Source: a phage. Taken from it: a DNA stretch of 64,000 nt. A model generated the notes under the pieces. That model worked only from the letters and a program-made list of their open reading frames with translations, searched no databases and was not told the DNA's origin. The stretch lies in the sequence record PZ452579.1. One strand, given 5' to 3'. This document shows positions 3,768 to 55,968 of the stretch, in pieces (the stretch's first letter is position 1; each line of letters starts with the position of its first letter). Made by a program: the position numbers and the translations under genes.

Positions 3768-4685
3768 TCAGAATTCATTAATTACACTTGTTAATTTAGA
3801 AAGACCAGATTTTACAAAGTATGAATAAATCTTGCCTTTAGGTTGTGGTTGATATGAGTTATAATACTCTATAATGGTTGAAGCAATATTATCAGGGATA
3901 TAATCAAAATCAATGAGAACCAAATTTTCTTGGTACCGTTTATATTCTTCTGCACTTAATAATACTTCAGCTTGAGAACGATCATTGGCAATTGCTTCAA
4001 TGATCGTTGTTTTCATGCTTGGAGTTCGTTCGCCTTCAACTCGAGTAAACCAGAAATCACCACGAACTCGAACAGACGCAACACCATCTTTACGGTCGCC
4101 TTTAAGAATTTTAGTCATGCAATCAATTTCGGCAGAACCATTCTTAATTTTAACCCATTTTTTCTGCGGTGGCGACCACTGTTTAACGTTAGGATATTTG
4201 TGTAATTGTGTAAAGTCACCATCTGATGCAACAATACATACCTTATGACCAGCTAATGACAAATATTTAGTTAATACACCGATATGGTCGTCCGCTTCAT
4301 ACTTGTCAATATCCATTACAACGTATGGCATGTATTTCTTAATCTCATCAACAACTTGATGGAGTGCAGTAAAATATCCTTCCCAATCCCACTTTGAAGC
4401 TTCACGATCAGTTTTACGATTTTTCTTGTAGTAGTAAGCAAAGTCGCGTCGCCAATACCCAGAAGTAGCGTTATCCATGCACAATACAAATTTTGTATAA
4501 CCTTGCTTACGGAACATCACTACGTTTTTACGAATTGAATTCAAGACTACATGACGAACCATCGGAACGGTAATTTTATCACCATCTTCAAAGTTGTTTA
4601 ATGCAGCTGCCAATGCAATGTTACTAAAGTCTGCAAGCGCAATACCTTCTTTGTAATCTTCATCCAACATCATTTCTAAATCCAT
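3768..4685 (-). CDS. rnh: RNase H (5'-3' exonuclease, FEN-1 family)
   Basis: 305 aa; MDLEMMLDEDYKEG...YEADDHIGVL...SDGDFTQL matches T4 RNase H. Confidence 0.95.
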   Translation of the reverse strand: MDLEMMLDEDYKEGIALADFSNIALAAALNNFEDGDKITVPMVRHVVLNSIRKNVVMFRKQGYTKFVLCMDNATSGYWRRDFAYYYKKNRKTDREASKWDWEGYFTALHQVVDEIKKYMPYVVMDIDKYEADDHIGVLTKYLSLAGHKVCIVASDGDFTQLHKYPNVKQWSPPQKKWVKIKNGSAEIDCMTKILKGDRKDGVASVRVRGDFWFTRVEGERTPSMKTTIIEAIANDRSQAEVLLSAEEYKRYQENLVLIDFDYIPDNIASTIIEYYNSYQPQPKGKIYSYFVKSGLSKLTSVINEF

Positions 4686-4763
4686 ATGAACCTCTTGTTC
4701 AGTTAGTCAACTTGGACTATAGTAACATACTAGTTCGAAAGCGTAAATAGTCTTTTACTCATT

Positions 4764-4771
4764 TATAAATA
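4764..4771 (+). promoter_or_regulatory. late promoter TATAAATA for gene 34
   Basis: exact TATAAATA about 35 nt upstream of the gene 34 ATG. Confidence 0.6.
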
Positions 4772-4805
4772 GTAAAATAGAACACATAATGATAAGAGGA
4801 CTACC

Positions 4806-25532: not shown

Positions 25533-26633
25533 TTACGCTGTGAAGATTTTATCCCACATCGCAACAACTGCATCTCGGTTATACTTCTTCCATACTGCTT
25601 CAGCACGTTTAACTCGAGCTTCGTACGTGTCAGTGAATTCTAATACAGCTTTTGTGTAAAGCGCAACTACTTCTTTCTTAGGAGTAGAGGAATCAATTTC
25701 TACACGCACAGTATCTGGGTCGTATTCAAATGTCGCATGAGGATAATCCTTAAAAACTAACTGGATTACAGGGACACCTTTAGAGATGGCTTCAATAGAA
25801 CTATTCTCTACCGTACCTGTGTCAGGACACGTATTAATAAGTGCTTTAGCTGTTTTAAGACGTTCCATGATTTCACTGTGTGGAGCATCAATAATAACAG
25901 GATACTTAGCCGGTGGTGCCCATTTGCTTGGACAATAACCAATACCATTTTCGCCTAGTGCTTTAATCGCTTCAAGAGCAACATCAGTACGACGCATTTT
26001 AGTGTCATAACGTTGTGCACTAATAATCAGATCAGTCGCCGGAAGAACTTCAGGTTTCTCATTCAAACAAATAACCGGATAATCTTCGGCTTCAAACAAC
26101 GGATTTGCTCGCCAATAATCATAATCAATTTTGTCAGTCAGACCTGAAGTCATATGACAATATTTGCGTTCAAATTCACGGAAGGCTTTAGTAGGAGCAT
26201 AACTCTTACCACCATTCTTATGAATTTGAATAGTCTGGTCCCAAATTTGAACAATGCCACGAGATACCGGTTCAAATGGTGTTGCCATAAAATTCTTATG
26301 AACTTTAGAGAGACCTGCGTCTTTAATTGCCTGAACGGTTAGTTTAGTCGGTTCCATAGTAACAACAAAATCGTATTCATGGATGCCGGCTAGTTCAACA
26401 ATCTTACGAGCCATAGTATAACTCATACCTAGACTGAATTTAGTCAGATGACCAACAGGATGATGATTAACTTTCCAATCACCAAATGTGTCATTATCAA
26501 AACCGATATAATCAATATCGGCACCAATAGAAACTAAATATTTCAACACATTTAAATGTACTGCTTCAAGACCACCTTGTACACGGTCAGGATTAAATGG
26601 GACTGCACGAGATGGGATAAACATAACTTTCAT
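25533..26633 (-). CDS. putative DNA-modifying glycosyltransferase (candidate hmC sugar transferase)
   Basis: 366 aa MKVMFIPSRAVPFNPDRVQGGLEAVHLNVLKYL...; sits between rIIA.1 and gene 39 where T4 has gene 60/mobA; GT assignment rests on position and recalled RB69-type literature, not on a visible motif. Confidence 0.55.
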   Translation of the reverse strand: MKVMFIPSRAVPFNPDRVQGGLEAVHLNVLKYLVSIGADIDYIGFDNDTFGDWKVNHHPVGHLTKFSLGMSYTMARKIVELAGIHEYDFVVTMEPTKLTVQAIKDAGLSKVHKNFMATPFEPVSRGIVQIWDQTIQIHKNGGKSYAPTKAFREFERKYCHMTSGLTDKIDYDYWRANPLFEAEDYPVICLNEKPEVLPATDLIISAQRYDTKMRRTDVALEAIKALGENGIGYCPSKWAPPAKYPVIIDAPHSEIMERLKTAKALINTCPDTGTVENSSIEAISKGVPVIQLVFKDYPHATFEYDPDTVRVEIDSSTPKKEVVALYTKAVLEFTDTYEARVKRAEAVWKKYNRDAVVAMWDKIFTA

Positions 26634-45425: not shown

Positions 45426-46569
45426 GGTCGTTTTCTATATCTGCTGCAGACGGAGCATCAGAAGTTTTAACCGGAACTTTAGTTGTTGCTTTGCAATTAA
45501 TAAGGTCGTTAACAGCGTCATCAACTTCTTTAATAGAAGAGATAGCACCTAGTTTATATTTAGTTTCAATTGCATCTCGGAAAGGTTTGTGTTTAAACAA
45601 AGGTCCCCAGAATTCTACACAATCAGTAGCTTTAGCACGCCATGATTTTTCTTCACGAATCATTTCACCTGTTTCTTCGTCAAGGAATTCGCGAGCATAC
45701 CAACCGGCTTTAGGCTTAACTACAAAACCAATTTCAGTTGCCATTTCTAACAAGCCACTGAATGGGTCAATACCGCCATCAAAATTAACCGTGATCGGGA
45801 AAGTAGATTTCTCTTTAACTGTGCGAGATTTTTCTGCTTTCAACGTGAAGTCATAACCGGTCAATTCTGTACCTTCTTTAACCTGACGTTTAGAGATAAA
45901 AAATACCGTGTTGGCAGAATAAAGAATACCTGTACCACCGCCCATAATCTCTTTAGGATACAATCCGCCGATTTCCATTGCTGTATGGTTAATTGCAACA
46001 CACGGAATATCTTTAATAGTCAAATACGGGGTCACAATACGGAAAAGAGATTTAAGTGCCTTAGCACGAGACATATCACCTACGACTTTCTCGTTCAATG
46101 CATCTTCGGTTTCTTTCTTAGATGCAGTATTACCAATCGAGTCAATAAAGATAATAACTTTATCACCGCGTTCAATAGCGTCAAGCTGATTAGTCATATC
46201 AACTTTAAGTTGTTCGACAGATTGAATCGGAGTATGAACTACACGGTCTAAATCAACACCCATTGAACGAAAATAAGATTCTGAAGCACCGAATTCTGAG
46301 TCATAAAACAAACAGATTGCATCTTTATATTTCTTCATATACGCTGCAACCATAGTTAGTCCAAACAACGTTTTAAAGTGTTTAGAAGGAGCAGCAAAAA
46401 TAGTTAAGCCTGATTGCAACCCTGCATTCAGAGCACCACCTAGTGCAATATTCAACATCGGAATACGAGTAGGGACTTCATCACGATTATTAAACAGCTT
46501 AGACTTAGTCAAGTCTGCAGTCATTTTAGAAGTAGAAGCTTTAATCAGACGAGATTTTAAATCAGACAT
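45397..46569 (-). CDS. uvsX: recombinase UvsX (RecA-like)
   Basis: 390 aa; MSDLKSRLIKASTSKMTADLTKSKLFNNRDE... matches T4 UvsX. Confidence 0.95.
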   Translation of the reverse strand: MSDLKSRLIKASTSKMTADLTKSKLFNNRDEVPTRIPMLNIALGGALNAGLQSGLTIFAAPSKHFKTLFGLTMVAAYMKKYKDAICLFYDSEFGASESYFRSMGVDLDRVVHTPIQSVEQLKVDMTNQLDAIERGDKVIIFIDSIGNTASKKETEDALNEKVVGDMSRAKALKSLFRIVTPYLTIKDIPCVAINHTAMEIGGLYPKEIMGGGTGILYSANTVFFISKRQVKEGTELTGYDFTLKAEKSRTVKEKSTFPITVNFDGGIDPFSGLLEMATEIGFVVKPKAGWYAREFLDEETGEMIREEKSWRAKATDCVEFWGPLFKHKPFRDAIETKYKLGAISSIKEVDDAVNDLINCKATTKVPVKTSDAPSAADIENDLDEMEDFDE

Positions 46570-46667
46570 TGTATTTTTCCATAGGCATCATTATATTTTA
46601 CTCATGTTTAAAAGATAAGATGATTATATACTAAGGGTTATACAGCATTTAAAACTTTAAATGGCTC

Positions 46668-47216
46668 TTAACGAGCCCATTTGATGATTTCTGTAATCAA
46701 ATCATTACGTTCGCTTGCATTAAATCCTATAACTTTGTTAGCACCATCATGATTAAGTAATTGATACGTTTGGATTTTGTTATGAATTGCAAACTCTTCA
46801 AAATGTGAAATGACTGTATTAAAACCGAATGAAGACAAAGTAATAAGGTCGTCTTCAAAACTTTCAGTCATTTCGTTACGTGTTAAAATAATTGTGAACA
46901 CATCATGGTTTTGGCAAAGACGAATATAATCCTGTTCATAAACGTCAAGAACCGAGTCCGCATCTTGTCGAATACGTCCATAAACCCAGTTACTAATATA
47001 TCCACGGTCTAACAGATAAATCTTAGTAGGGTCTAAATAATTCAACATCGTTTCGAAACAGCCAACTTCGTTTCGAGACTTAACATCGAAACGTCCATCA
47101 ACTGTTCGTTTAGGGAAATCAATCTTTACATATCTTTCACTAATTTCCATTATGTCATTAATGAAAGTTGTTTTACCAGCATTATCCGGGCCATCTACTA
47201 AAATAATTTTAGCCAT
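46668..47216 (-). CDS. P-loop kinase, thymidylate/dNMP-kinase-like
   Basis: 182 aa; Walker A ILVDGPDNAGKTT and DR(G)Y-like LLDRGYIS; occupies the T4 beta-gt position. Confidence 0.6.
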   Translation of the reverse strand: MAKIILVDGPDNAGKTTFINDIMEISERYVKIDFPKRTVDGRFDVKSRNEVGCFETMLNYLDPTKIYLLDRGYISNWVYGRIRQDADSVLDVYEQDYIRLCQNHDVFTIILTRNEMTESFEDDLITLSSFGFNTVISHFEEFAIHNKIQTYQLLNHDGANKVIGFNASERNDLITEIIKWAR

Positions 47217-47217
47217 T

Positions 47218-48117
47218 TTATTCCTCGATTACGACATCTTCGTATTTAGGTATATTATACGGCGAAGAAATTAAAGCATTAAAGTAGATGAACTCACCAA
47301 GACCTGGATGGAATACTTCTTCAGGATTTTCGAAATATTGAATCTTCGGACGTCCTTTAAGAATTTGATAGTACTCAGTTTTAGTCGGTTTAAAAATTCG
47401 AATCAGCGCTTCTTCAGGATACTTATTTCTGTCGAAGCTATTATTTGGATCGGTTATATAAAGCGGTTGACCTAATTGAATTGCACATTCAACCACTTGT
47501 TCAAAACGATAGCATGGGTCACTAATTCGAAATGGATGAAAAATACCATCTAGATGAATAGGAGCCAAATCACCTACAAGACGCTGCATGATGGAAGGAC
47601 GTATAACTTTCTGGGTTATGATAATCTTATTACCATCGGCACCAGCGTTAACCAGCACTTCCTTTTGACGTTTATTCAACACAGTTGTTTGGATTGAACG
47701 ATTAACCGACAACATGTCGGTTTTTAAGAATTCGTCAATATAAAAACGTGGTTTATTAGGGTCTGCGGTGATATTGAAATTGAATTCTACATCAAAAGCG
47801 CCGTCATATCCAGTGATATCTGTGATTAGAAAATCACAATCATAATAAGCAATTAATGAATCAACCACAAATTCATTTTCAGACCAGAAATATTTACGAG
47901 TGTTATACGCGTTATCTTTATACCATAATGGAACAAACTTAAATTCTGGGAAAAGACGTTCACATTCTTTAATATCAGATGCATTACGTGGATATGTAAT
48001 CACATCACCTGGATTAGCACGGTGCAAATGAAGTTGGAAGTTGCCATCCTTAAGGATAGCATACTGTCCAGTTTCATAAGACCGCATACTCAAGATAGGT
48101 ACGCGGAAAATAGCCAT
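47218..48117 (-). CDS. hypothetical protein, translationally coupled to gp42-like gene
   Basis: 299 aa; ATG overlaps the gp42-like stop (TAATG); no recognisable motif. Confidence 0.6.
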   Translation of the reverse strand: MAIFRVPILSMRSYETGQYAILKDGNFQLHLHRANPGDVITYPRNASDIKECERLFPEFKFVPLWYKDNAYNTRKYFWSENEFVVDSLIAYYDCDFLITDITGYDGAFDVEFNFNITADPNKPRFYIDEFLKTDMLSVNRSIQTTVLNKRQKEVLVNAGADGNKIIITQKVIRPSIMQRLVGDLAPIHLDGIFHPFRISDPCYRFEQVVECAIQLGQPLYITDPNNSFDRNKYPEEALIRIFKPTKTEYYQILKGRPKIQYFENPEEVFHPGLGEFIYFNALISSPYNIPKYEDVVIEE

Positions 48118-48833
48118 TAGTCAAGGAATCCTTTAACATAATCAAAATCACGTTCAAACACATGGGCACTTACCATGGTATGAGTATAATCACCAACTTC
48201 TACACCACATTCGTTAGCGATATAATGAAGTAATTTTCCTTGGAGATAAAAATCCAACTGCATAACAACAGCACAGTTCTGAGAACGCATATGACAGTGG
48301 GTATAAAGCTTACCATCGCGAATATAATAAGTCACTGAGTCAGTACATGGATATTCAAGTGTTTCGTCCGAATCAAGCAAAGCCTGATCAGAACTTTCTA
48401 GAATTTGGAACACAACTCTTCGAGAGTTAGGCTTCTCTTTAAGTTCTTTTAGAAGAGCTGGTAATTGGGCTGCAATGCGAGGACCATAGAAAGTGTTGAA
48501 GTTCGCAGGCAAAGCATCTGATTTTGGTTTAGAAATAAATTTAGCGACATTAGGATATGCCTTAAACGCTTCTTCTGCATCAGTACCACCAGAAATCATA
48601 AATTTCCAGAAGTCTTCGGCATATTCATAAGAGATGCGGTTAATACGTGGGTCGGTCATTTTGAATGATGATGGAGTGTCAACAACTACTGTCATAGACC
48701 CAATTTCATTACAACGTCCAATACGAGAATCAGTTACGAATTCCGGGTTTTCTAAAATTTCACGATTGACTGCTTTAAATGCGGCTTGAAAATCTGCGGC
48801 TTTGATATATTTCATTGTGTTATGTTTTCCCAT
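48117..48833 (-). CDS. 42: thymidylate-synthase-family pyrimidine hydroxymethylase (divergent gp42-like dCMP hydroxymethylase)
   Basis: 238 aa; TS-fold signatures NSRRVVFQ, EYPCTDS, HMRSQNCAVVMQLDF, GVEVGDYTHTMVSAHVF; SD GAGGT upstream. Confidence 0.7.
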   Translation of the reverse strand: MGKHNTMKYIKAADFQAAFKAVNREILENPEFVTDSRIGRCNEIGSMTVVVDTPSSFKMTDPRINRISYEYAEDFWKFMISGGTDAEEAFKAYPNVAKFISKPKSDALPANFNTFYGPRIAAQLPALLKELKEKPNSRRVVFQILESSDQALLDSDETLEYPCTDSVTYYIRDGKLYTHCHMRSQNCAVVMQLDFYLQGKLLHYIANECGVEVGDYTHTMVSAHVFERDFDYVKGFLD

Positions 48834-48874
48834 GTTTACCTCAATACAGTTATTATATACTCAATTCATAAAGC

Positions 48875-49114
48875 TTATTTGAATTTCTTGGCAATGTTGA
48901 TATAACGTAAAGCTTCAGCATCGATACTTCCAAGAACACTATGAAGAAATGCATCAGCGTAATATTCTAGTTGAACAGGTTCTTTAATCACTTTAGCCGC
49001 TTTGGTTTCAAACAGGCCCATAAGGGCCTTTTTAAGAATTTGTTCGTTAGTGTTCAGTTTCATAGTCAAAATCTCTTCATTAAGTTGGTGGTTAAAAGTT
49101 TTTCTAGAAATCAT
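48875..49114 (-). CDS. hypothetical protein
   Basis: 79-aa ORF; ATGA overlap with upstream stop. Confidence 0.45.
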   Translation of the reverse strand: MISRKTFNHQLNEEILTMKLNTNEQILKKALMGLFETKAAKVIKEPVQLEYYADAFLHSVLGSIDAEALRYINIAKKFK

Positions 49115-50286
49115 TCTGGGTACCTCAAAGCGTCGTCAGAGTTAGTTATATCAATAATAGATATAGAATTTTCTGATAACCCGTTTTTAGATAACTGACG
49201 TTTATAATATCTTTCACAATATGTACACGTCGTCCCGCAGATTTCATTAGCACAATCGAAATCTGGATGTCTGAACCACCTTTTTTCTAAAAAGCCATCT
49301 AACAAAGAGGTTTCAATATTTACTGTATGTGAAAACTCGGTCTCATTTTCAAGAGTGAAAATAGTCTCTAAAGGCTTCCACAGTTCTAACAAATTACCTT
49401 CAAACTTTTCAGAAGCGTATGCTTCAAGAACTTTCAAAATGTAGTCTGTGCTACCTGTACGTCCTGAAACTTTGAATTGAGTGATACCGATATCATTATA
49501 AAGTTTCAAATCTTGAGGACGAACAAAACGAGTTCTCAACCAGTTAAATGGGTCTGTATCACGAGCTTTAATACAGTGCTGCATTGGATATCCGTTTAAG
49601 GATTTAGCATCATCAGCTGTAACATCAGTACTATGGAAAATATAGCAAGAGTCACGATAGCTACAATGTGTTGTATACCCTTTACCAGCATTAGAACAGA
49701 ACTCATTTACAAGAACTTCAAATATTATATTGTTCTTATTGCAAAACTCTGCTGCACGCTTCAGGAAAGAAACTGAACGGTTCTTATGAATTCCGCAACA
49801 GACCTTTTTGATATTATATTGGTCATGCAAGTATTTGATTTGAGTTACAGCATCGACATGTAGAATTGTTGAAACTTCAATCTCAATGTCTTTATTGACT
49901 TCACGAACAATTTCCATAACAACAGGGTTAGCGATAGTAATACGCCATACGCCTATTGACCAAAGATACTGAACATAATCCTGAATAGCTTTCTTCTTCC
50001 ACTCAACTAGTTCTCTTTTTGAACCAGGATTTATCGTGTTGAGCGTATAGTTAAAGCAAATACCTAATTCGTTACAACGTTTAACGTAATCTTCTAACAT
50101 CTTTTTGTCAACGTCAGGAAGCCTAAAATCAGGTCTGGCTGCTACAAAAGCCATTTCTCTTGTAGAGCCGTATACTTCGTTTATCAAGCTATTAGGATAA
50201 GTTTTATTGAGCTCTACGATTTTATCAAGAAGAGCTAAATCAAAATTCGTTCCGATTTTAAAAGTATTCATTTTTTTGCATCTCAC
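49111..50286 (-). CDS. hypothetical Cys-rich protein, candidate modification enzyme
   Basis: 391 aa; C-terminal cluster CANEICGTTCTYCERYY (Cx4Cx3Cx2C), possible metal or Fe-S site. Confidence 0.6.
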   Translation of the reverse strand: MRCKKMNTFKIGTNFDLALLDKIVELNKTYPNSLINEVYGSTREMAFVAARPDFRLPDVDKKMLEDYVKRCNELGICFNYTLNTINPGSKRELVEWKKKAIQDYVQYLWSIGVWRITIANPVVMEIVREVNKDIEIEVSTILHVDAVTQIKYLHDQYNIKKVCCGIHKNRSVSFLKRAAEFCNKNNIIFEVLVNEFCSNAGKGYTTHCSYRDSCYIFHSTDVTADDAKSLNGYPMQHCIKARDTDPFNWLRTRFVRPQDLKLYNDIGITQFKVSGRTGSTDYILKVLEAYASEKFEGNLLELWKPLETIFTLENETEFSHTVNIETSLLDGFLEKRWFRHPDFDCANEICGTTCTYCERYYKRQLSKNGLSENSISIIDITNSDDALRYPE

Positions 50287-50327
50287 GTTAATTGATGCGA
50301 TGGTTTTTGCAGGTCTTACTTAAATTA

Positions 50328-50729
50328 TTATAGATTCGGTTTATATGATTTAAATGTTTCGAATTCGCCTTTATTCATAAGAGCTTTGAATTCGTCAGGA
50401 CGCATAGCTTTGTCGTCGATAATCCAATCATATACTGGTTTATGTGTTAGCAAATTATGGTACTTTAAGCCAATGTTTGCCAAGTTCTGGATCAGACTTG
50501 GGAGAATGTCAATTGCTATACGACCAGGACCTACTGACTTCATACCGCGAGCAGTGTAAAGCGTTATGGTATGCCCTGCATCATACAGGGCATTAATGGC
50601 AGACACCATTTCGACGTCTGGTTTGAAGTTCACGTAATCACGATTGTTATTCCACTCTGTTATACAATCATCGACATCAAAACAAAGATTAAGCATGTTT
50701 TCTACACGGTGCATTAGATTCGTTCCCAT
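50328..50729 (-). CDS. HAD-superfamily phosphatase-like protein
   Basis: 133 aa; motif I LCFDVDDCIT (DxDxT); small KdsC-like size. Confidence 0.6.
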   Translation of the reverse strand: MGTNLMHRVENMLNLCFDVDDCITEWNNNRDYVNFKPDVEMVSAINALYDAGHTITLYTARGMKSVGPGRIAIDILPSLIQNLANIGLKYHNLLTHKPVYDWIIDDKAMRPDEFKALMNKGEFETFKSYKPNL

Positions 50730-52399
50730 TGATGAGTGATATCGCCACCGATTGGACGATAGGAAACACCAGTTTCTTTATCAGTTAGTACCCATTTACC
50801 AGGATTTTTTGTAATCAGAGTAGCCGTTACAGGTTCTGCTACGTCATAACTAATAGAGCCGTCTTGAAGTACACGGCCCATATTACGTAATTGCTTAGTC
50901 AGAAGTTCCATACCTTTATAATATGCGGCTACCGCTTTAAGTGGATTATTCTTGAAATAACCACCTAATGCAATCCAGATAATTGCCACTGCCAAATGAT
51001 GATACTCGTTAAACGAACTCATCTTTCCATATTTGTAAACTAATGGATTGATGTTAATAGTCACATTACAAGTTGTTTCATCAATAGTAAACTGTCCCCA
51101 GGTCGGATTAGCGTTGAATTCATCATAACCTGAAACAGCATAAAGCACTTTAGCTTCATCGTACAATTTTGGCCCGTAAATCTTGGTTTCGCCAAAATAT
51201 CCACGAGGGTCGATAAACTTGACTTCGCCGTTATCAGTAATCATAGTATTACTGAAGTTCGGGTCACCATGAATAACAGAGTACTGTCCCTGAGAACGGT
51301 TATGATAACGAATAAGGTGTTCTAAAGCTTGTTTCAGCATTGGCTTCAGACGTCCAATCTTAGTGTAGTTCACATGTGTGATTTTACCAAATGAATCAAT
51401 CAATGGTTGAATGCTTTCACAACGATCAATAACTTTCGTATAGAATTCTTTAGTGAAATCACGACGAACAGTTTCAGGACTTACAAAATAAGTGTCTGTG
51501 CTGAATTTCAGTGCATCTAAAATTGCATCAACAATTTGTGGACGAGCAAGACTTGATTTGGATTTAATATATTCAAATGCCGGCTTACCTTTAATGCGTT
51601 CCATTTCAAAGTTATTTTCATTAACAGAAACTAACTGAGGAACTGAATCTGATTTCACTTTAAGATACCATGAAATCTCATCTTTCTGAAGAGCTCGGCC
51701 CTGTTCGGTTAATGCGAATTTAGTTACAGTTTCTTCACCAATTTCAACTGCATTAAAACTACGATTAAGTTCACGAACTTCATGAGCTTTTTCAAGTTTA
51801 GGCATATCACCTAAATCAATTAGATTCATAAGCTCTGATTTATTGAATGCACTGCCGTAAAGGAATTCTACGAAATCACGTCCTTTGCAGTATTCGTGAA
51901 TTTCCTCATCAGTAGAACCCATGTAGAATTCCCAGTCTTTGAACTGATAAATTCCTACAACATTACCACCTGTTGAACCTACGTTAGTGATATTTTCACC
52001 GTCGAAATTATATCGACATTCGTCACCCTTAACATAGATTGCGTTAACATTCCAAGACCATGAACCAAAATCAGGAATAATATCACACCAGTTAACAATT
52101 ACATTATGGCCGTCTAAATCTTTGTGTAATTTAGCAAGAGCATAAGCAGAACCATACGCTTCATCAACTGTACGAATAGTCACATTGAACCCTTCTTGCT
52201 CACAATAAGCTCGAACAGTTTCAGCAAATTTTGAATGAACTACTACAATAATTTCATCTGCGCCAAGGTCAGAATAAATTGTATACAAATTGCTCAGAAT
52301 AGTGTCTTGTTTATAGTTCACAAGAACTTTTGGAATATGGTGAGTAATTGGATATAAACGAGTTGCCAGTCCAGCACCAAGAATAACAGCTTTTTTCAT
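50714..52399 (-). CDS. bifunctional sugar-1-phosphate nucleotidyltransferase / APH-like (anomeric) sugar kinase
   Basis: 561 aa; N-terminal AVILGAGLATRLYPIT (RmlA-like G-x-G-x-R-L); C-terminal VIHGDPNFSNTMI and FIDPRGYFGE (APH/choline-kinase Brenner and DFG-like motifs). Confidence 0.7.
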   Translation of the reverse strand: MKKAVILGAGLATRLYPITHHIPKVLVNYKQDTILSNLYTIYSDLGADEIIVVVHSKFAETVRAYCEQEGFNVTIRTVDEAYGSAYALAKLHKDLDGHNVIVNWCDIIPDFGSWSWNVNAIYVKGDECRYNFDGENITNVGSTGGNVVGIYQFKDWEFYMGSTDEEIHEYCKGRDFVEFLYGSAFNKSELMNLIDLGDMPKLEKAHEVRELNRSFNAVEIGEETVTKFALTEQGRALQKDEISWYLKVKSDSVPQLVSVNENNFEMERIKGKPAFEYIKSKSSLARPQIVDAILDALKFSTDTYFVSPETVRRDFTKEFYTKVIDRCESIQPLIDSFGKITHVNYTKIGRLKPMLKQALEHLIRYHNRSQGQYSVIHGDPNFSNTMITDNGEVKFIDPRGYFGETKIYGPKLYDEAKVLYAVSGYDEFNANPTWGQFTIDETTCNVTININPLVYKYGKMSSFNEYHHLAVAIIWIALGGYFKNNPLKAVAAYYKGMELLTKQLRNMGRVLQDGSISYDVAEPVTATLITKNPGKWVLTDKETGVSYRPIGGDITHQWERI

Positions 52400-52440
52400 G
52401 TTGAAGTCCTCATTGGTAAGTAGGAGTATTGTACACTATT

Positions 52441-52584
52441 CTAGTTAAAGCATTCATACTTTGCTTGTAGTCCAATCATAATCCATCCAATTACAAGTGT
52501 TGGAATCATTACTGGAGCCGTTAAGCTCCAGTAGATAGTCATGACAAGCATCAATAGTAAAAGTCCTATTGTTATTGCTTTCAT
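52441..52584 (-). CDS. small membrane protein (not in ORF track)
   Basis: 47 aa MKAITIGLLLLMLVMTIYWSLTAPVMIPTLVIGWIMIGLQAKYECFN; ATGA overlap with SIS gene stop. Confidence 0.45.
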   Translation of the reverse strand: MKAITIGLLLLMLVMTIYWSLTAPVMIPTLVIGWIMIGLQAKYECFN

Positions 52585-53216
52585 TGTTCGCCTCGTAACA
52601 TGGCACCTAGTGCACCGCCTGGATGGAACTTAAGGAAATCATTAGAGGTAAATCCGCGTTCAGACGAAAGGTTGATAGCGAACGTATCGATAAGCGCTAA
52701 CAACAATGTAGTAGACATTGTCGGAGCTAAAGAGTTCTCGTCAACTTCTACCGCGATACCGGTACAGAACGTATAATCAAAAAGAGCTTCGTATTCTTGT
52801 GGAATGTCAGGGTTACAATGTAACAGAATCTGTTTAACCTGAGGACGAATCATACGAAGATGTTTAGCAACACCTATCATTTCTTCAGTCTTACCAGAAC
52901 GACTGATGTGAATCAACACATCATTAGGTGCAATAAATCCTGCGTCACCATGAGAATAATGCCCAGTGTTCAAATACATGCTAGGAATACCTAGTGAAGC
53001 AAAAGTCTCGGAAGCTTTAGTTGCGATATTAGCATTCTTACCAACACCTGTAATAATTACACGACTTTCATAATTACTCAGTCCAGGGCGACGAAGAGTT
53101 TCAAGAATAGCATTATATCGGGCAGGGTTTTGACTAATTACTTTAGCCATAGTGGCAAGAGATGAAGCTTGTTTTACGATTGCGTCAATAGCGATAGTGA
53201 TTGGTGTAGTTTTCAT
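52581..53216 (-). CDS. SIS-domain sugar-phosphate isomerase, KdsD-like arabinose-5-phosphate isomerase
   Basis: 211 aa; GVGKNANIATKASETFASLG, SHGDAGFI, ISRSGKTEE, LAPTMSTT, FHPGGALG, closely paralleling E. coli KdsD SIS-domain motifs; no CBS domains. Confidence 0.8.
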   Translation of the reverse strand: MKTTPITIAIDAIVKQASSLATMAKVISQNPARYNAILETLRRPGLSNYESRVIITGVGKNANIATKASETFASLGIPSMYLNTGHYSHGDAGFIAPNDVLIHISRSGKTEEMIGVAKHLRMIRPQVKQILLHCNPDIPQEYEALFDYTFCTGIAVEVDENSLAPTMSTTLLLALIDTFAINLSSERGFTSNDFLKFHPGGALGAMLRGEQ

Positions 53217-53256
53217 ATTTCTCTCATTTAATTAGTTGGCCGTCCTTGGCATTATA

Positions 53257-55968
53257 TCAAAAATCAAACATATCGAACAGAGATGCTTTCTTCTCGTAAT
53301 CGAGTTTCGCTGCTGATGTGAATCCTTCAAGCGGTTTAATAAATGTCTTCTCAAGGAGAACAGTGTAGTCCATCCAATGAAGTACATCATCTTTGATTAA
53401 ATCAGTGATTTCCGTACCAGAAGGCCATGCGATACATTTATCACCGAATGGGTTTCCTTCACGTAAAGGCAGAACATATACTTTTTCACCTTCTACAACT
53501 TGTGGAGCATCAATATTACCTTTGATAGCCCGGTTATATGTCAGAATTCCACGAATATGGAACGGGCATTTAGGTCCTGGATATCCACCTACATCATATT
53601 TAGCAATGTTATTCGCAGAAGATACCGACGCGATGCTAATATAATTCAATTGACGGAATTCTTTTTCAAACTCTTTAAAATATTCTTGTAATGATTCTTC
53701 ACCTTCTTGAAGCATACGACGAATACATTCTTTAAGAGCTTTCTGTACTGCTTTAGGAGTCGAAGATTTCTGAGTCTCTAGACCCATGATTTTGAGTTTA
53801 GGCTCAGCGTATCTGGTTCCTTCCATATCCCACACGTTTAATGCATAACGTTTCTTACCAGTCCAGAATCCACCAATACCTTTAGAACCGAGCGGAGGAC
53901 CAGCGATAGCTTCTCGGTCCATGAACATTAAGTGTTGTTTATTGTTCATGTATTCACACATTTCACGGAAACCTTTATCAATAGCTGGTTCCATACGTTC
54001 ACGTGCAAACTTATCTAAGAAGTCTACCCAATGGTTGGTATCACGGAATTTAGATTCACCAACCTTATCGATAATTTTATCAGCAGATACGTAAATAGAG
54101 TCTGTATCACCATAAAGAACGAAAGCTTCACCTTCTGTACCACAAACTTCATTCAGATATTCATTAACTTTACGTTCAATCCACTGTAAAGCCATTTGAC
54201 CAAATGTTGTGATTGCAGTAGCATTACGCAAATCATAATAACGGAACCAAACGTTGCCAAGTGCACCATAAAGTGAGTTGATAAGCAATTTACGGTTAAT
54301 CTGTGCAGTCATACCTGCAACTTCAGTACGTTGAGCTCTAAACAACATTTCATTAAGAGATTTAGCAGACAACTTTTTAATCTTTTCTTTAATCTCATCA
54401 CTGAAGTCGAAACGATAATCAACATCTAATGGTTCGTCAACAGAAAGATTAGGATTATGTAAGGCCTCTTTAATTATTTCACCATTACGTTGAGCCGCAA
54501 GCATATAACCTTTATGTTCTTTACGTTGATTAAAGACTTTAGTGATTTCAGTTGGAACAACACCGTCACGGTCTTTATAATACATCATGCCGTTAGGAGA
54601 ACAACTGTACACATCAGAAGGACGTTCAGCAACAGCGTTAATATAATCATGTAATGGAGCTACTTTAAACGTTCCTGCTATTGTTTCTGGGCTAATATTC
54701 ACTTGGCGAATGATGCTTGGATACAGAGATGTTAGGTCGAAGCTCATCACATATTTGTATCGATTTGGAATAGGTTCCTTAACAAAAGCACCCGGGTAAG
54801 GTTGAACTGGATGCGAACGACCTTGTGGAATCACCTTGTTTTGTTCTTTAAGGCTATTAAAAATAATAGCGTCCCACGTTTTAATTGGGCTAAACACAGA
54901 TTGAATCTGTATCTTAGCATAATAACCCATGTCCAAGCTCAAGTTAATGAACTGACGCTTAGCATCAATTTGCAATACACGATACACGTCGATAATGTTA
55001 TAAGAAATATATCGTTGGTGATTGCTTTCACGAAGCTTAGAAATAGGGCCATCATATTTCAGTTTACCAACGTTCAATTCAAATTCTGAAATGTAATCCA
55101 GAGAATACGACGGTTGATTGGTAAAAGAGAATTTTTTGTAAAGGTCGATGTAATCAAGAACAGAGATACCGAACAATGTAATGATTTCTCGTGAACCATA
55201 CATGTTTTCAATAACTTTAACACGAGTCTTGCGATGTGGTGACAACCGTTTTGCTGTGGATTCGCCAAAAATATTCTTGATTCGGTTATACACATATGGA
55301 ATATCAAATGACTCAACGTTCCATCCAGTCAAAATGACAGGAGTTTTCTGTTGCCAGAAGTTGAGATATTCCATCAACAATTCTTTTTCGTTATCGAACG
55401 GCATATAAATGATTTTATCGATAATTTCAGATGGAACTTCATCACCGCCTTGTTCTTGAAGCTTAGCAGCGATTTCAATAGACCATTCTTCTACATTACC
55501 ATATGGAGAATTCAATAGATCAAATACGTAGAACCTGTCGTCAATTGAGTCATAATGGGTGATAGCATCAATCGGATGTTTTGCTTGTGACGGCTCAGGG
55601 AACCCGTCCGGAGATGTTACTTCGATGTCGAAGTTAGCCACACGAATTTTTGTATGGTCGTATTTGATTTCATAGTTATAAGTGTCAGACAAATACGCCA
55701 ATTTGAAATCGTCCATGCCAAGTGCTTCAAGTCCGATATCTTCCATGCGTTTAATCCATTGTGAGGCATCACGCATATTAGCGAACAACTTACGAGTACA
55801 CGGCTTACCGTAGATATCGAAATATTTCGTAGCCTGACTTTCTGGACAATGAGCAAACAGTGATGGTTTATATTCTACTTCACGAGTACGTTCACGGCCG
55901 TTAGAATCGATGTAACGTTCAAAAATTGAATCACCGATCTGTTCAACCGTTAAGTAAAATTCTTTCAT
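53257..55968 (-). CDS. 43: DNA polymerase gp43 (family B), RB69-type
   Basis: 903 aa; MKEFYLTVEQIGDSIFERYIDSNGRERTREVEYKPSLFAHCPESQATKYFDIYGKPCTRKLFANMRDASQW...; exo motif FDIE, pol motifs DTDS, KILINSLYG. Confidence 0.97.
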   Translation of the reverse strand: MKEFYLTVEQIGDSIFERYIDSNGRERTREVEYKPSLFAHCPESQATKYFDIYGKPCTRKLFANMRDASQWIKRMEDIGLEALGMDDFKLAYLSDTYNYEIKYDHTKIRVANFDIEVTSPDGFPEPSQAKHPIDAITHYDSIDDRFYVFDLLNSPYGNVEEWSIEIAAKLQEQGGDEVPSEIIDKIIYMPFDNEKELLMEYLNFWQQKTPVILTGWNVESFDIPYVYNRIKNIFGESTAKRLSPHRKTRVKVIENMYGSREIITLFGISVLDYIDLYKKFSFTNQPSYSLDYISEFELNVGKLKYDGPISKLRESNHQRYISYNIIDVYRVLQIDAKRQFINLSLDMGYYAKIQIQSVFSPIKTWDAIIFNSLKEQNKVIPQGRSHPVQPYPGAFVKEPIPNRYKYVMSFDLTSLYPSIIRQVNISPETIAGTFKVAPLHDYINAVAERPSDVYSCSPNGMMYYKDRDGVVPTEITKVFNQRKEHKGYMLAAQRNGEIIKEALHNPNLSVDEPLDVDYRFDFSDEIKEKIKKLSAKSLNEMLFRAQRTEVAGMTAQINRKLLINSLYGALGNVWFRYYDLRNATAITTFGQMALQWIERKVNEYLNEVCGTEGEAFVLYGDTDSIYVSADKIIDKVGESKFRDTNHWVDFLDKFARERMEPAIDKGFREMCEYMNNKQHLMFMDREAIAGPPLGSKGIGGFWTGKKRYALNVWDMEGTRYAEPKLKIMGLETQKSSTPKAVQKALKECIRRMLQEGEESLQEYFKEFEKEFRQLNYISIASVSSANNIAKYDVGGYPGPKCPFHIRGILTYNRAIKGNIDAPQVVEGEKVYVLPLREGNPFGDKCIAWPSGTEITDLIKDDVLHWMDYTVLLEKTFIKPLEGFTSAAKLDYEKKASLFDMFDF

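What the first reader, a model, noticed from the sequence alone, without database searches (positions are those of the whole stretch)
46668..48833. gp42-like hydroxymethylase translationally coupled to an unknown 299-aa protein and a thymidylate-kinase-like P-loop kinase
Three genes are linked by 1-nt stop/start junctions (TAATG at 48117, and stop 47218..47220 next to ATG 47216), which implies stoichiometric co-expression. The TS-family enzyme is clearly diverged from T4 gp42 while most replication proteins in the window are conserved. The kinase (GPDNAGKTT, LLDRGYIS) sits exactly where T4 encodes beta-glucosyltransferase. P-loop kinases acting on hydroxymethyl-pyrimidines in DNA are known from thymidine-hypermodifying phages, so a phosphorylated intermediate or an extra dNMP kinase step is possible. 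The 299-aa protein has no motif I can recognise.
Basis: partly seen in the sequence, partly recalled or inferred. Interest (0 to 1): 0.75.

Follow-up and report, generated by a model that had tools for sequence, protein, structure and literature searches.

The report
Arabinosyl-hydroxycytosine DNA modification gene core
These three tightly packed genes of an RB69-like phage are the already published core of the pathway that replaces cytosine in the phage DNA by sugar-coated 5-hydroxycytosine; the first enzyme is a hydroxylase rather than a hydroxymethylase, and only the kinase's exact job is still open.

Summary
Three minus-strand ORFs (238, 299 and 182 aa) are joined by a 1-nt overlap and a 1-nt spacer. 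The window is an RB69-like Mosigvirus. The three proteins are 97-100% identical to RB69 gp48, gp47+46 and gp45.

- **238-aa protein:** it is not a gp42-type hydroxymethylase. It carries the C146/E143/N169/D177 signature of the FMN/O2-dependent 5-hydroxy-dCMP synthase, shown experimentally for RB69 gp48 (Lee et al., NAR 2026). It is 98.7% identical to PDB 9IQC.

The hydroxylase-GT-kinase trio, with its tight junctions, recurs in about 50 distant phage loci. One phage (Morganella MP1) keeps the kinase alone.

Verdict: already known; moderate to low interest.

A side lead may be new. The adjacent U32 Fe-S protein (gp50) pairs with the kinase and GT in phages that lack the TS homolog. It is coupled to a chorismate mutase in relatives and occurs in anaerobes. 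This suggests an O2-independent, prephenate-dependent second route to 5-hydroxycytosine.

The parts
48117..48833 (-). 5-hydroxy-dCMP synthase (238 aa). A thymidylate-synthase-fold, flavin/O2-dependent dCMP C5-hydroxylase; ortholog of RB69 gp48.
   Evidence: Pfam Thymidylat_synt E 2.4e-15. 99.6% identical to RB69 gp48. 235/238 identical to PDB 9IQC/9IR2. Residues E143, C146, N169 and D177 in E. coli ThyA numbering. Activity was shown for RB69 gp48 in PMC13326640.
47218..48117 (-). GT-B fold glycosyltransferase (299 aa); ortholog of RB69 gp47+gp46. Proposed to attach the base-proximal arabinofuranose to the 5-OH of 5-hydroxycytosine. The activity has not been demonstrated.
46668..47216 (-). Thymidylate-kinase-fold P-loop NMP kinase (182 aa); ortholog of RB69 gp45. 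Inferred to phosphorylate the modified dCMP (5-hydroxy-dCMP, or possibly its arabinoside).
48875..49114 (-). 79-aa gp49-like small protein of unknown function. It overlaps the U32 gene's stop by 4 nt and occupies the slot where relatives carry a chorismate mutase.
   Evidence: phrog_8601 E 5e-52 and no Pfam hit. Slot comparison.
49111..50286 (-). U32-family Fe-S protein (391 aa; RB69 gp50). Hypothesised here to be an O2-independent, prephenate-dependent cytosine-5 hydroxylase.
   Evidence: Pfam Peptidase_U32, 42.2 bits against a cut-off of 22.4. Invariant Cys208/214/238 align with UbiU ligands C169/C176/C193. Context evidence.
50328..50729 (-). HAD-type phosphatase (133 aa; RB69 gp51, AfhF-like). 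Part of the UDP-arabinofuranose supply.
   Evidence: phrog_1238 E 5e-43. Role taken from PMC13326640.
50714..52399 (-). Bifunctional sugar-1-kinase / nucleotidyltransferase (561 aa; RB69 gp53+52, AfhE-like). Makes UDP-arabinofuranose.
   Evidence: Pfam NTP_transferase E 8.5e-10 plus weak APH-type kinase hits. Role taken from PMC13326640.
52581..53216 (-). Arabinose-5-phosphate isomerase-like SIS protein (211 aa; RB69 gp55).
   Evidence: The ORF is listed. The equivalent gene is annotated as a phosphosugar isomerase in Bas46 and as GutQ-like in RB69. Role taken from PMC13326640.
25533..26633 (-). Second DNA arabinosyltransferase (366 aa; RB69 gp3-like GT4), located outside the cluster.
   Evidence: E 4e-251 to PDB 9IQZ/9IR0, 'phage HY126 glycosyltransferase'. 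Proposed second arabinosyltransferase in PMC13326640.

Best explanation
The three genes are the conserved core of the phage pathway that replaces cytosine in virion DNA by arabinosylated 5-hydroxycytosine.

**Step 1 (shown for a 99.6%-identical protein).** The 238-aa thymidylate-synthase-fold enzyme hydroxylates dCMP at C5, using a flavin and O2, to give 5-hydroxy-dCMP.

**Step 2 (inferred).** The 182-aa thymidylate-kinase-fold enzyme phosphorylates this modified monophosphate to the diphosphate. In T4-like phages it does so alongside the gene-1-type dNMP kinase. Host Ndk then makes the triphosphate, and the phage polymerase incorporates it.

**Step 3 (inferred from fold, synteny and literature).** The 299-aa GT-B enzyme transfers arabinofuranose from UDP-Araf, which the upstream genes make, onto the 5-hydroxyl. 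The 366-aa GT elsewhere in the window adds the second arabinose.

Hydroxylase, GT and kinase travel together as a portable cassette among unrelated phages. Their tight junctions reflect that co-inheritance and probable co-translation.
For: **Identity of the phage and proteins**
- The window is 98% identical in DNA to RB69 and Bas46.
- The three proteins are 97-100% identical to RB69 gp48, gp47+46 and gp45.

**Chemistry from the literature**
- RB69 DNA carries mono- and di-arabinofuranosyl-5-hydroxycytosine.
- gp48 makes 5-hydroxy-dCMP, with 18O2 incorporation and bound FMN (PMC13326640).

**Tested here**
- The hydroxylase signature E143/C146/N169/D177 is present.
- A near-identical crystal structure exists, 9IQC.

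**Co-occurrence**
- All complete IMG/VR loci whose GT is at least 33% identical carry an N169-type TS and the kinase. These include a 356-kb jumbo-phage contig, a 122-kb contig and a marine T4-like contig.
- More distant GT relatives are still flanked by a TMK-like P-loop kinase.
- This holds even where the hydroxylase is a U32 protein instead of a TS homolog.

**Synteny**
- The GT replaces beta-gt directly after the TS-family gene.
Against: - No biochemical activity has been reported for the 299-aa GT or the 182-aa kinase in the papers I could read.
- Lee et al. saw no arabinosylation by single DLP3 GTs on 5hoC-DNA. They state they cannot tell whether the first sugar goes onto the nucleotide or onto DNA.
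- RB69 gp159 (the gene-1 homolog) already phosphorylates 5-hydroxy-dCMP, and with gp48 it suffices for incorporation in E. coli. The kinase may therefore be redundant.
- Morganella phage MP1 keeps an intact kinase (54% identical, all invariant residues) but has no N169 TS, GT or sugar genes in the 150 of 163 kb examined.
- The kinase fails the curated dTMP-kinase models (TIGR00041 16 bits against a cut-off of 83; no PF02223 hit). It also has no obvious catalytic Arg in the P-loop or lid.
- The Thanatos ortholog of the GT was reported as a UDP-xylose pyrophosphorylase in vitro (PMC12838424).
- He et al. (Nat Chem Biol 2026) and Mahler et al. (Cell Host Microbe 2025) could not be read and may assign these genes differently.
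Confidence: 0.8

Rival explanations
1. First reader's version. A gp42-like dCMP hydroxymethylase makes hm-dCMP, and the P-loop kinase phosphorylates hydroxymethyl-pyrimidine in DNA, as the 5-hmdU DNA kinases of thymidine-hypermodifying phages do. This would create a phosphorylated intermediate for further modification.
For: The enzyme belongs to the TS family, with the dCMP-specifying Asp at position 177 and an acidic residue at 143, as in T4 gp42. A P-loop kinase is adjacent. RB69 was originally reported to carry arabosyl-hmC (PMC6024577, listed).
Against: - Position 169 is Asn, as in all verified 5-hydroxy-dCMP synthases. T4 gp42 has Asp there (RSND against RSQN).
- The 99.6%-identical RB69 gp48 makes 5-hydroxy-dC with oxygen from O2.
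- The earlier hmC assignment has been corrected.
- The kinase's best structural matches are mononucleotide thymidylate kinases.
- The C5 oxygen is retained as the ether bridge, so activating it as a phosphate leaving group makes no chemical sense.
Confidence: 0.03
2. The 182-aa protein is an ordinary pyrimidine dNMP (dTMP/dCMP) kinase. It boosts the nucleotide supply and is linked to the modification genes only by genome neighbourhood. It is redundant with gene 1 and dispensable for modification.
For: - It has a thymidylate-kinase fold.
- Morganella phage MP1 keeps it, with all invariant residues, between gp43 and uvsX. MP1 lacks the hydroxylase, GT and sugar genes and has its own gene-1-type kinase.
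- RB69 gp159 plus gp48 suffice for 5hodC incorporation in E. coli.
- Distant TMK-like relatives sit beside ThyX or MazG-type nucleotide genes in high-GC phages.
- The kinase has moved away from the GT in 12 loci.
Against: - The kinase accompanies the GT in essentially every complete locus over a 25-99% identity range. This includes non-T4 phages and cassettes with a different hydroxylase.
- It usually has overlapping junctions with the GT.
- It is retained in about 200 T4-like genomes that already encode a gene-1 kinase.
- It does not score as a dTMP kinase with curated models.
- The Arg that reads thymine O4 in thymidylate kinases appears to be replaced, with an invariant Phe-Glu pair instead (my reading; not verified by superposition).
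Confidence: 0.2
3. Gene order equals pathway order. The GT arabinosylates 5-hydroxy-dCMP at the mononucleotide level. The kinase is a dedicated arabinosyl-5-O-dCMP kinase that the gene-1 enzyme cannot replace. The polymerase then incorporates an already glycosylated nucleotide.
For: - Lee et al. found no activity of single GTs on 5hoC-DNA. They explicitly leave open a nucleotide-level first glycosylation.
- The kinase is conserved despite a gene-1 kinase that accepts 5-hydroxy-dCMP.
- The GT is directly coupled to the hydroxylase upstream and the kinase downstream in most loci.
- The GT family is acidic (median pI 5.3), whereas DNA-binding T4 beta-GT has pI 9.05.
- Free 5-hydroxycytosine in DNA is a known mutagenic lesion and repair substrate (general knowledge), so pre-glycosylation would avoid exposing it.
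Against: - The T-even paradigm is post-replicative glycosylation.
- The second and third arabinoses are added on DNA.
- 5hodC is readily incorporated unglycosylated.
- The 366-aa DNA GT is also not basic (pI 6.4), so pI is weak evidence.
- MP1 keeps the kinase without any GT.
- There is no direct observation of arabinosyl-dCMP or arabinosyl-dCTP.
Confidence: 0.13
4. The 299-aa protein is a sugar-nucleotide pyrophosphorylase that helps to make the activated pentose. It is not the DNA or nucleotide glycosyltransferase.
For: The syntenic 300-aa protein TH1_063 of Shewanella phage Thanatos was reported to have UDP-xylose pyrophosphorylase activity in vitro (PMC12838424).
Against: - The cluster already encodes a bifunctional kinase/pyrophosphorylase, assigned to UDP-Araf synthesis by analogy with the characterised HY126 AfhE.
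- The protein also occurs in cassettes with no sugar-activation genes within 10 kb.
Confidence: 0.05

Closest known systems
RB69 gp45-gp48 / Acinetobacter phage DLP3 gp78-gp80 / Rhizobium phage RL38J1 gp214-216 (Lee et al., NAR 2026, PMC13326640; bioRxiv 2025.06.16.659550)
   Same: These are essentially the same genes: 97-100% identity to RB69 gp45, gp46:47 and gp48. The order is the same (kinase, GT, TS homolog), and so is the surrounding UDP-arabinose cluster between gp43 and uvsX.
   Different: Nothing substantive. The window has the intact 299-aa and 561-aa ORFs that the old RB69 record splits through sequencing errors.
Phage HY126 Afh pathway (He et al., Nat Chem Biol 2026; PDB 9IQC/9IR2/9IQU hydroxylase, 9IQZ/9IR0 glycosyltransferase)
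   Same: The hydroxylase is 235/238 identical to 9IQC. The window's 366-aa GT matches 9IQZ at E 4e-251.
   Different: The paper could not be read. Neither the 299-aa GT nor the 182-aa kinase has a PDB entry, so what that study says about them is unknown to me.
T4 gene 42 (dCMP hydroxymethylase) followed by beta-glucosyltransferase
   Same: The genomic slot between gene 43 and uvsX is the same. The logic is the same: a TS-family enzyme makes a C5-oxygenated dCMP and a glycosyltransferase decorates it.
   Different: - Identity to gp42 is 25%, with Asn instead of Asp at ThyA position 169.
- The chemistry is flavin/O2 hydroxylation rather than folate-dependent hydroxymethylation.
- The GT has no sequence similarity to beta-gt.
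- The sugar is arabinofuranose, not glucose.
- There is an extra TMK-like kinase.
Cellular and viral thymidylate kinases (e.g. vaccinia A48R, PDB 2V54)
   Different: - Identity is 8-19%.
- The protein falls below the curated model cut-offs.
- Only the P-loop aligns to E. coli Tmk by hhalign.
- The P-loop Arg is replaced by an invariant Asn, and the lid segment is acidic.
5-hydroxymethyl-dU DNA kinases of thymidine-hypermodifying phages (Lee et al. 2018/2021)
   Same: Both are P-loop kinases encoded next to a TS-family enzyme in a phage base-modification cluster.
   Different: Those enzymes act on DNA to create a pyrophosphate or phosphate leaving group. Here the fold is that of mononucleotide kinases, and the product keeps the C5 oxygen. 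No sequence model of that family was available to test.
U32-family O2-independent hydroxylases RlhA (ho5C2501 of 23S rRNA), TrhP (ho5U34 of tRNA) and UbiU/UbiV. This is the comparison for the neighbouring gene gp50, not for the trio.
   Same: gp50 hits the Peptidase_U32 domain above threshold. Its invariant Cys residues align with UbiU Fe-S ligands. Relatives have an adjacent chorismate mutase, which makes prephenate, the oxygen donor of this enzyme class.
   Different: Identity to UbiU/UbiV is 19-22%. gp50 has an extra invariant C-terminal CX4CX3CX2C motif. The presumed substrate is a deoxynucleotide rather than RNA or a quinone precursor. No activity is known.

Membership tests
[quoted passage not shown] | TS fold or domain with the catalytic Cys (ThyA C146) | tested here: met
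   PF00303, 56.9 bits against a cut-off of 24.3. Cys is aligned with C146.
[quoted passage not shown] | Asn at ThyA position 169 (the D169N diagnostic of Lee et al.), together with Asp at 177 and Glu at 143 | tested here: met
   E143, N169 and D177 are present in the window protein. 50 of the 51 TS homologs found next to this GT family also have Asn at position 169; the exception has Ser. The criterion comes from PMC13326640.
[quoted passage not shown] | Near identity to an experimentally verified member | tested here: met
   99.6% identical to RB69 gp48. 98.7% identical to the HY126 enzyme, PDB 9IQC.
[quoted passage not shown] | Flavin- and O2-dependent hydroxylation of dCMP | not testable with these tools
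   Known only from the literature for the RB69 and HY126 orthologs.
T4 gp42-type dCMP hydroxymethylase | Asp retained at ThyA position 169 and close similarity to gp42 | tested here: not met
   The window has Asn (RSQN) where T4 has Asp (RSND). Identity is 25%. gp42 is absent from the 60 best PDB sequence hits.
GT-B fold glycosyltransferases (GT4-like) | Two Rossmann-like domains superposable on GT-B enzymes | tested here: met
GT-B fold glycosyltransferases (GT4-like) | Match to the curated sequence models (Glycos_transf_1 / Glyco_trans_4) | tested here: not met
   No Pfam or NCBIfam family at E up to 0.1. Only phrog_3891, 'unknown function'.
GT-B fold glycosyltransferases (GT4-like) | Transfer of arabinofuranose from UDP-Araf to 5-hydroxycytosine | not testable with these tools
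   Proposed but not shown in PMC13326640.
T4 beta-glucosyltransferase family | Sequence or closest structural similarity to T4 beta-gt | tested here: not met
Thymidylate (dTMP) kinase family | NMP-kinase fold closest to thymidylate kinases, with a P-loop | tested here: met
Thymidylate (dTMP) kinase family | Score above the curated family cut-offs (PF02223, TIGR00041) | tested here: not met
   No PF02223 hit at E up to 0.1. TIGR00041 gives 16.4 bits against a cut-off of 83.25. hhalign to E. coli Tmk aligns only the P-loop.
Thymidylate (dTMP) kinase family | Catalytic Arg in the P-loop (type I) or lid (type II), and a D-R-Y/H motif | tested here: inconclusive
   D70-R71-G72-Y73 is present. The P-loop position is an invariant Asn12. 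The lid-equivalent segment (R113...F120-E-D-D-L-I) is acidic. Distant module kinases have GxDRxGK. No superposition was possible.
5-hmdU-type DNA kinases (thymidine hypermodification) | Homology to the 5-HMUDK family and action on DNA | not testable with these tools
   No profile of that family is in the libraries offered. The structural neighbours are mononucleotide kinases.
U32 O2-independent hydroxylases (for neighbouring gp50, 49111-50286) | Peptidase_U32 domain above threshold, with the conserved Fe-S cysteines | tested here: met
   42.2 bits against a cut-off of 22.4. C208/C214/C238 are invariant in 23 homologs and align with UbiU C169/C176/C193. The ligand identities come from PMC6747719.
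U32 O2-independent hydroxylases (for neighbouring gp50, 49111-50286) | Dependence on prephenate | tested here: inconclusive
   A CM_2 chorismate mutase (36-68 bits against a cut-off of 27) is coupled to the U32 gene in most related phages and in an Erysipelotrichales MAG. The window itself has none.

The most novel reading that the evidence does not exclude
The kinase-glycosyltransferase pair of this finding is the invariant core of a portable 'O-glycosyl-5-hydroxycytosine' cassette. Two non-homologous cytosine-5 hydroxylases can feed it: the FMN/O2-dependent TS-fold enzyme of the finding, and the adjacent U32 Fe-S protein (gp50, 49111-50286) working without O2 and taking the oxygen from prephenate.

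Phages of facultative anaerobes such as this one would carry both, in the way T4 carries aerobic and anaerobic ribonucleotide reductases. Phages of strict aerobes would carry only the TS-type enzyme. Phages of strict anaerobes would carry only the U32-type enzyme, often with their own chorismate mutase. On this reading the kinase is the committed step that captures 5-hydroxy-dCMP whichever hydroxylase made it.

I found no statement of this in the papers I could read.
Probability: 0.45. Interest if true: 0.8.

Novelty: already known. Interest (0 to 1): 0.3.

Why it matters
The trio is the genetic core of a recently recognised DNA hypermodification, arabinosylated 5-hydroxycytosine. This modification shields a large group of T4-like phages, including therapeutic candidates, from restriction enzymes, DNA glycosylases and some CRISPR systems.

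For annotation, these genes are still widely labelled 'dCMP hydroxymethylase / thymidylate synthase', 'hypothetical protein' and 'thymidylate kinase'. The N169 signature plus the GT-kinase pair is a reliable marker of 5-hydroxycytosine chemistry.

Two questions remain open and are now directly testable: what the dedicated kinase phosphorylates, and whether the first sugar is added to the nucleotide or to DNA.

The neighbouring U32/chorismate-mutase lead would matter more if confirmed. It would be the first prephenate-dependent hydroxylation of a DNA precursor, and it would explain how these phages keep their DNA modified in the anoxic gut, where the O2-dependent hydroxylase cannot work.

Tried and rejected
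- **Promoter and terminator scan of 46300-53400.** It found no more sites than shuffled sequence (21 against 27 expected; 4 against 3.6). I therefore make no claim that the trio is a separate transcription unit. The hairpin GGCTC-GTTAA-GAGCC after the kinase stop was seen by eye only.
- **Sequence search of the kinase and the GT against PDB.** No meaningful hits.
- **hhalign of the kinase family against E. coli Tmk.** Only the P-loop aligned, so substrate-pocket residues could not be mapped. My reading of the invariant F54-E55 pair as a cytosine-reading feature is unverified.
- **Literature access.** He et al. 2026, Mahler et al. 2025 and any text naming AfhA-D could not be obtained. The transposon-mutagenesis preprint gave no essentiality data for Bas46.
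- **Net charge of the GT (pI 5.3 against 9.05 for T4 beta-gt).** Considered as evidence for a nucleotide acceptor, but judged weak because the DNA-acting 366-aa GT has pI 6.4.
- **Search for isolates or prophages of the U32-only cassette.** There is no close relative among GenBank phages, and the GT patterns found none in bacterial genomes. The hosts of those four contigs remain unknown.
- **phmmer with the hydroxylase against MP1.** It failed to detect even MP1's ordinary td thymidylate synthase. Absence of a divergent TS homolog in MP1 therefore rests on annotation and on PMC8056088 as well. The last 13 kb of MP1 were not fetched.


Full report
**1.

Searches show three ORFs on the minus strand at the coordinates given:
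- 48833..48117 (238 aa)
- 48117..47218 (299 aa)
- 47216..46668 (182 aa)

The first junction is TAATG, a 1-nt overlap. The second is TAA-A-ATG, a 1-nt spacer, preceded by GAGGA inside the upstream ORF. The quoted kinase motifs are present.

Such junctions are common in this genome. 8 of 18 junctions in the annotated 14 kb of a 98%-identical phage overlap or abut. The junctions alone therefore do not prove special stoichiometric coupling. Their conservation in distant relatives, described below, is what makes them meaningful.

**2. What the window is**

Megablast places the region at 98% identity to RB69, Bas46 (ChristianSchoenbein) and about 150 other Mosigvirus genomes.

The three proteins compare to RB69 as follows:
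- The 238-aa protein is 99.6% identical to gp48.
- The 299-aa protein is 97-100% identical to gp47+gp46. The old RB69 record splits this gene; Bas46 and the window have one 299-aa ORF.
- The 182-aa protein is 98.9% identical to gp45.

The T4 order in this region is 43, imm.1, imm, 42, beta-gt, segA, uvsX, 40, 41. In the window the order is:
1. gene 43
2. an arabinose-5-P isomerase-like gene
3. a small ORF
4. a 561-aa nucleotidyltransferase/kinase
5. a HAD phosphatase
6. a U32 protein
7. a 79-aa ORF
8. the TS homolog
9. the 299-aa protein
10. the 182-aa kinase
11. uvsX, 40 and 41

The 299-aa protein, not the kinase, therefore sits in the beta-gt slot.

**3. The literature already covers this cluster**

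Lee et al. (NAR 2026, PMC13326640; preprint June 2025) report the following:
- RB69 and Acinetobacter phage DLP3 replace cytosine by mono- and poly-arabinofuranosylated 5-hydroxycytosine. The sugar is joined by an ether to C5, not through a hydroxymethyl group.
- RB69 gp48 converts dCMP to 5-hydroxy-dCMP. It incorporates 18O from O2 and binds FMN.
- gp46:47 is a predicted GT-B 'arabinosyltransferase 1'.
- gp45 is a predicted 'nucleotide kinase' of thymidylate-kinase fold.
- RB69 gp159 (the gene-1 homolog) phosphorylates 5-hydroxy-dCMP.
- The same kinase-GT-TS order occurs in DLP3 (gp78-80) and in Rhizobium phage RL38J1 (gp214-216).

The role of gp45 is never discussed in that paper. No activity of single GTs on 5hoC-DNA was seen. 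The authors state that they cannot tell whether the first arabinose is added to the mononucleotide or to DNA.

A 2021 comparative paper had already listed RB69p045, 047, 049, 050 and 051 as presumed members of the arabinosylation pathway (PMC8056088).

He et al. (Nat Chem Biol 2026, phage HY126) and Mahler et al. (Cell Host Microbe 2025) are cited for the flavin mechanism, the crystal structure and the UDP-Araf enzymes. I could not read either.

**4. My own tests agree**

*The TS homolog.*
- It hits PF00303 and is 235/238 identical to PDB 9IQC/9IR2.
- It is only 25% identical to T4 gp42.
- It has Glu143, Cys146, Asn169 and Asp177 in ThyA numbering. T4 gp42 has Asp at 169.
- It is therefore a member of the hydroxylase branch, not a hydroxymethylase.

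*The 299-aa protein.*
- It has no Pfam, NCBIfam or PDB sequence match.
- It folds with pLDDT 95.5 into two Rossmann-like domains.

*The 182-aa protein.*
- It folds with pLDDT 87.9.
- It fails the curated dTMP-kinase models and aligns to E. coli Tmk only at the P-loop.
- It has the TMK-typical P-loop Asp and a D-R motif.
- It has an invariant Asn where type-I enzymes have the catalytic Arg, and its lid segment is acidic.

**5. Comparative genomics of the trio**

Homologs of the GT were found in 137 protein clusters and 56 IMG/VR loci.

- Every complete locus with a GT at least 33% identical carries an adjacent TS homolog and the kinase.
- 50 of the 51 TS homologs have Asn at position 169; one has Ser.
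- The loci include a 356-kb jumbo-phage contig, a 122-kb contig and a marine T4-like contig. There the three proteins are only 28-55% identical to the window's.
- TS-to-GT spacing is -4 or -1 nt in 30 of 51 loci. GT-to-kinase junctions overlap or abut in 36 of 36 loci where the kinase is downstream.
- In 12 loci the kinase lies upstream instead, in six of them overlapping the start of the TS gene.
- GT relatives at 24-29% identity are still flanked by a TMK-like kinase with a GxDRxGK(D/T) P-loop.

The hydroxylase-GT-kinase set therefore behaves as a portable cassette.

There is one informative exception. Morganella phage MP1 keeps an intact kinase (54% identical, all invariant residues) between gp43 and uvsX. 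It has no N169 TS, no GT and no sugar genes in the 150 of 163 kb examined, and it has its own gene-1 kinase. An independent paper also lists MP1 as lacking all known modification enzymes. The kinase can therefore persist without the rest.

**6. Mechanism I commit to**

1. **Shown for the ortholog.** The 238-aa enzyme makes 5-hydroxy-dCMP.
2. **Inferred.** The 182-aa kinase makes the diphosphate of the modified nucleotide. In T4-like phages this overlaps with the gene-1 enzyme.
3. **Inferred.** The 299-aa GT puts the first arabinofuranose on the 5-OH, and the 366-aa GT at 25533-26633 adds the second. The 366-aa GT matches PDB 9IQZ at E 4e-251.

My probabilities for the kinase are about 0.6 that it acts on a C5-oxygenated dCMP, of which about 0.13 is for the arabinoside, and about 0.2 that it is a housekeeping pyrimidine-NMP kinase.

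The fold is that of mononucleotide kinases, and the C5 oxygen is kept in the product.

The report that the Thanatos ortholog of the GT is a UDP-xylose pyrophosphorylase (PMC12838424) conflicts with the fold. It also conflicts with the presence of a dedicated pyrophosphorylase in the cluster.

**7. Side lead, outside the finding's coordinates but in the same cluster**

*The protein.* The 391-aa protein at 49111-50286 (RB69 gp50) is a Peptidase_U32 family member (42 bits against a cut-off of 22). Lee et al. call it a 'sugar or heterocycle reductase' and do not mention U32, prephenate or chorismate.

*What the U32 family does.* It contains the only other known route to 5-hydroxycytidine: RlhA, which needs Fe-S clusters and prephenate (PMC5727448). 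It also contains the O2-independent hydroxylases TrhP and UbiU/UbiV, for which prephenate is the oxygen donor (PMC10990095).

*What I found.*
- **(a) Cysteines.** gp50 Cys208/214/238 are invariant in 23 homologs and align with the UbiU cluster ligands C169/C176/C193. There is also an invariant C-terminal CX4CX3CX2C motif.
- **(b) Cassettes without a TS homolog.** Four low-GC phage contigs carry kinase-GT-U32 with overlapping junctions. The U32 protein is 48-50% identical to gp50. There is no TS homolog and no UDP-Araf gene within 10 kb.
- **(c) Host range among GenBank phages.**
  - gp50 occurs in 222 records, all from Enterobacterales or Shewanella hosts, and all at least 80% identical.
  - The GT occurs in 343 records, including 57 Acinetobacter phages.
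  - Acinetobacter is not among the ten organism names listed for U32, so at most 3 of the 222 records could be Acinetobacter phages.
  - The Acinetobacter and Pseudomonas loci I fetched lack U32.
  - DLP3 makes tri-arabinosyl-5hoC without a U32 gene. gp50 is therefore not needed for the sugar pathway.
- **(d) Chorismate mutase in T4-like phages.** In most U32-bearing T4-like phages, but not in the window or RB69 lineage, a roughly 80-aa AroQ chorismate mutase lies between the U32 gene and the TS gene with overlapping junctions. It scores 36-50 bits on Pfam CM_2 against a cut-off of 27. Chorismate mutase makes prephenate.
- **(e) Relatives in bacterial genomes.**
  - Relatives of gp50 at 44-52% identity occur only in MAGs and genomes of Erysipelotrichales, Bacillota, Lachnospiraceae, BRC1, Tannerella and Phocaeicola.
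  - In the Erysipelotrichales contig, a CM_2 chorismate mutase (68 bits), a TMK-like kinase and a GT relative lie together 3 kb from the U32 gene.
  - The other contigs carry nucleotide enzymes next to the U32 gene: a guanylate-kinase/methyltransferase fusion, an NT5C deoxynucleotidase, a PnuC transporter and a deoxynucleoside kinase.

*Reading.* Together this supports gp50 as an O2-independent, prephenate-dependent nucleotide cytosine-5 hydroxylase. It would be the anaerobic counterpart of the O2-dependent enzyme of the finding. This is an inference from context only.

*Bearing on the kinase.* The kinase-GT pair stays constant whichever hydroxylase is present. This fits a nucleotide-level hydroxylation followed by a dedicated kinase.

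**8. Verdict**

The finding is a real and biologically important gene set. Its identity, its chemistry and most of its parts were published in 2025-2026.

I rate it 'already known', with interest 0.3.

Two things remain open: the kinase's substrate, and the level at which the first sugar is added. The U32/chorismate-mutase lead is the item most worth taking further.

Noticed in passing
window 49111-50286 (-): The 391-aa U32-family Fe-S protein (RB69 gp50) lies inside a 5-hydroxycytosine cluster. U32 proteins are the known O2-independent, prephenate-dependent hydroxylases (RlhA makes 5-hydroxycytidine in rRNA).

- Its conserved Cys residues align with UbiU Fe-S ligands.
- It pairs with the kinase and GT in phage contigs that have no TS homolog.
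- It is absent, or nearly so, from Acinetobacter phages that carry the GT.
- Its closest cellular relatives are in anaerobes.

It may be an anaerobic route to 5-hydroxy-dCMP.
   Followed up: partly
window 48875-49114 (-); L095 5655-5894; L008 5067-5306; L089 10297-10581: The slot between the U32 gene and the TS homolog holds a 79-aa protein of unknown function in the window (phrog_8601, no Pfam hit). In Klebsiella, Edwardsiella, Yersinia, Proteus and other related phages the same slot holds an AroQ chorismate mutase (Pfam CM_2, 36-50 bits against a cut-off of 27), translationally coupled to U32. An Erysipelotrichales MAG has chorismate mutase (68 bits), kinase and GT next to each other.
   Followed up: partly
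L080 20500-21030 (Morganella phage vB_MmoM_MP1, NC_031020): MP1 keeps the TMK-like kinase (54% identical, all invariant residues) between gp43 and uvsX. It lacks the hydroxylase, the GT and all sugar-activation genes, and it encodes a gene-1-type dNMP kinase as well. It is a natural test case for a modification-independent role of the kinase.
   Followed up: yes
L004 4739-5293: In a 122-kb metagenomic phage contig, a Flavodoxin_2 (NAD(P)H:FMN reductase-like) gene lies directly upstream of the N169 TS homolog, GT and kinase. This fits the flavin dependence of the hydroxylase.
   Followed up: no
L092-L094 about 4000-8100; L090 7013-9900: Cellular relatives of gp50 in Phocaeicola, Tannerella and BRC1 sit in a conserved three-gene set: a guanylate-kinase/methyltransferase fusion (425 aa), a 267-aa protein of unknown function, and U32. 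In a Bacillota MAG the U32 gene is followed by an NT5C deoxynucleotidase, a PnuC-type transporter and a deoxynucleoside kinase. This may be an uncharacterised anaerobic nucleotide hydroxylation (and methylation?) pathway.
   Followed up: partly
window 25533-26633 (-): A 366-aa GT4-like glycosyltransferase, ortholog of RB69 gp3. It is essentially identical to the solved 'phage HY126 glycosyltransferase' 9IQZ/9IR0 (E 4e-251). It is the presumed second arabinosyltransferase and lies 20 kb from the cluster.
   Followed up: partly
L054 3615-6201; L056 4755-9300: Two variant cassettes.
- L054 has a TS homolog with Ser instead of Asn at position 169, followed by the GT and a gene whose product starts with an FAD-binding motif and looks like a UDP-galactopyranose mutase (my reading of the sequence only).
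- L056 (GC 21.5%) has the GT fused to an N-terminal segment with a HAD-like DxD motif (my reading), followed by homologs of the window's SIS isomerase and nucleotidyltransferase/kinase.

No kinase was detected in either.
   Followed up: no
L002 4719-5619 and 8216-9902 (RB69 AY303349): The reference RB69 record splits the GT (ORF046c/047c) and the nucleotidyltransferase/kinase (ORF052c/053c) into two ORFs each. The window and Bas46 have single intact ORFs of 299 and 561 aa, in line with the sequencing errors noted by Lee et al..
   Followed up: yes
phage GenBank records under: In hundreds of deposited genomes the hydroxylase is annotated as 'thymidylate synthase' or 'dCMP hydroxymethylase', the GT as 'hypothetical' or 'RNA polymerase binding protein', and the U32 protein as 'peptidase' or 'collagenase'. 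This is systematic mis-annotation of the pathway.
   Followed up: no
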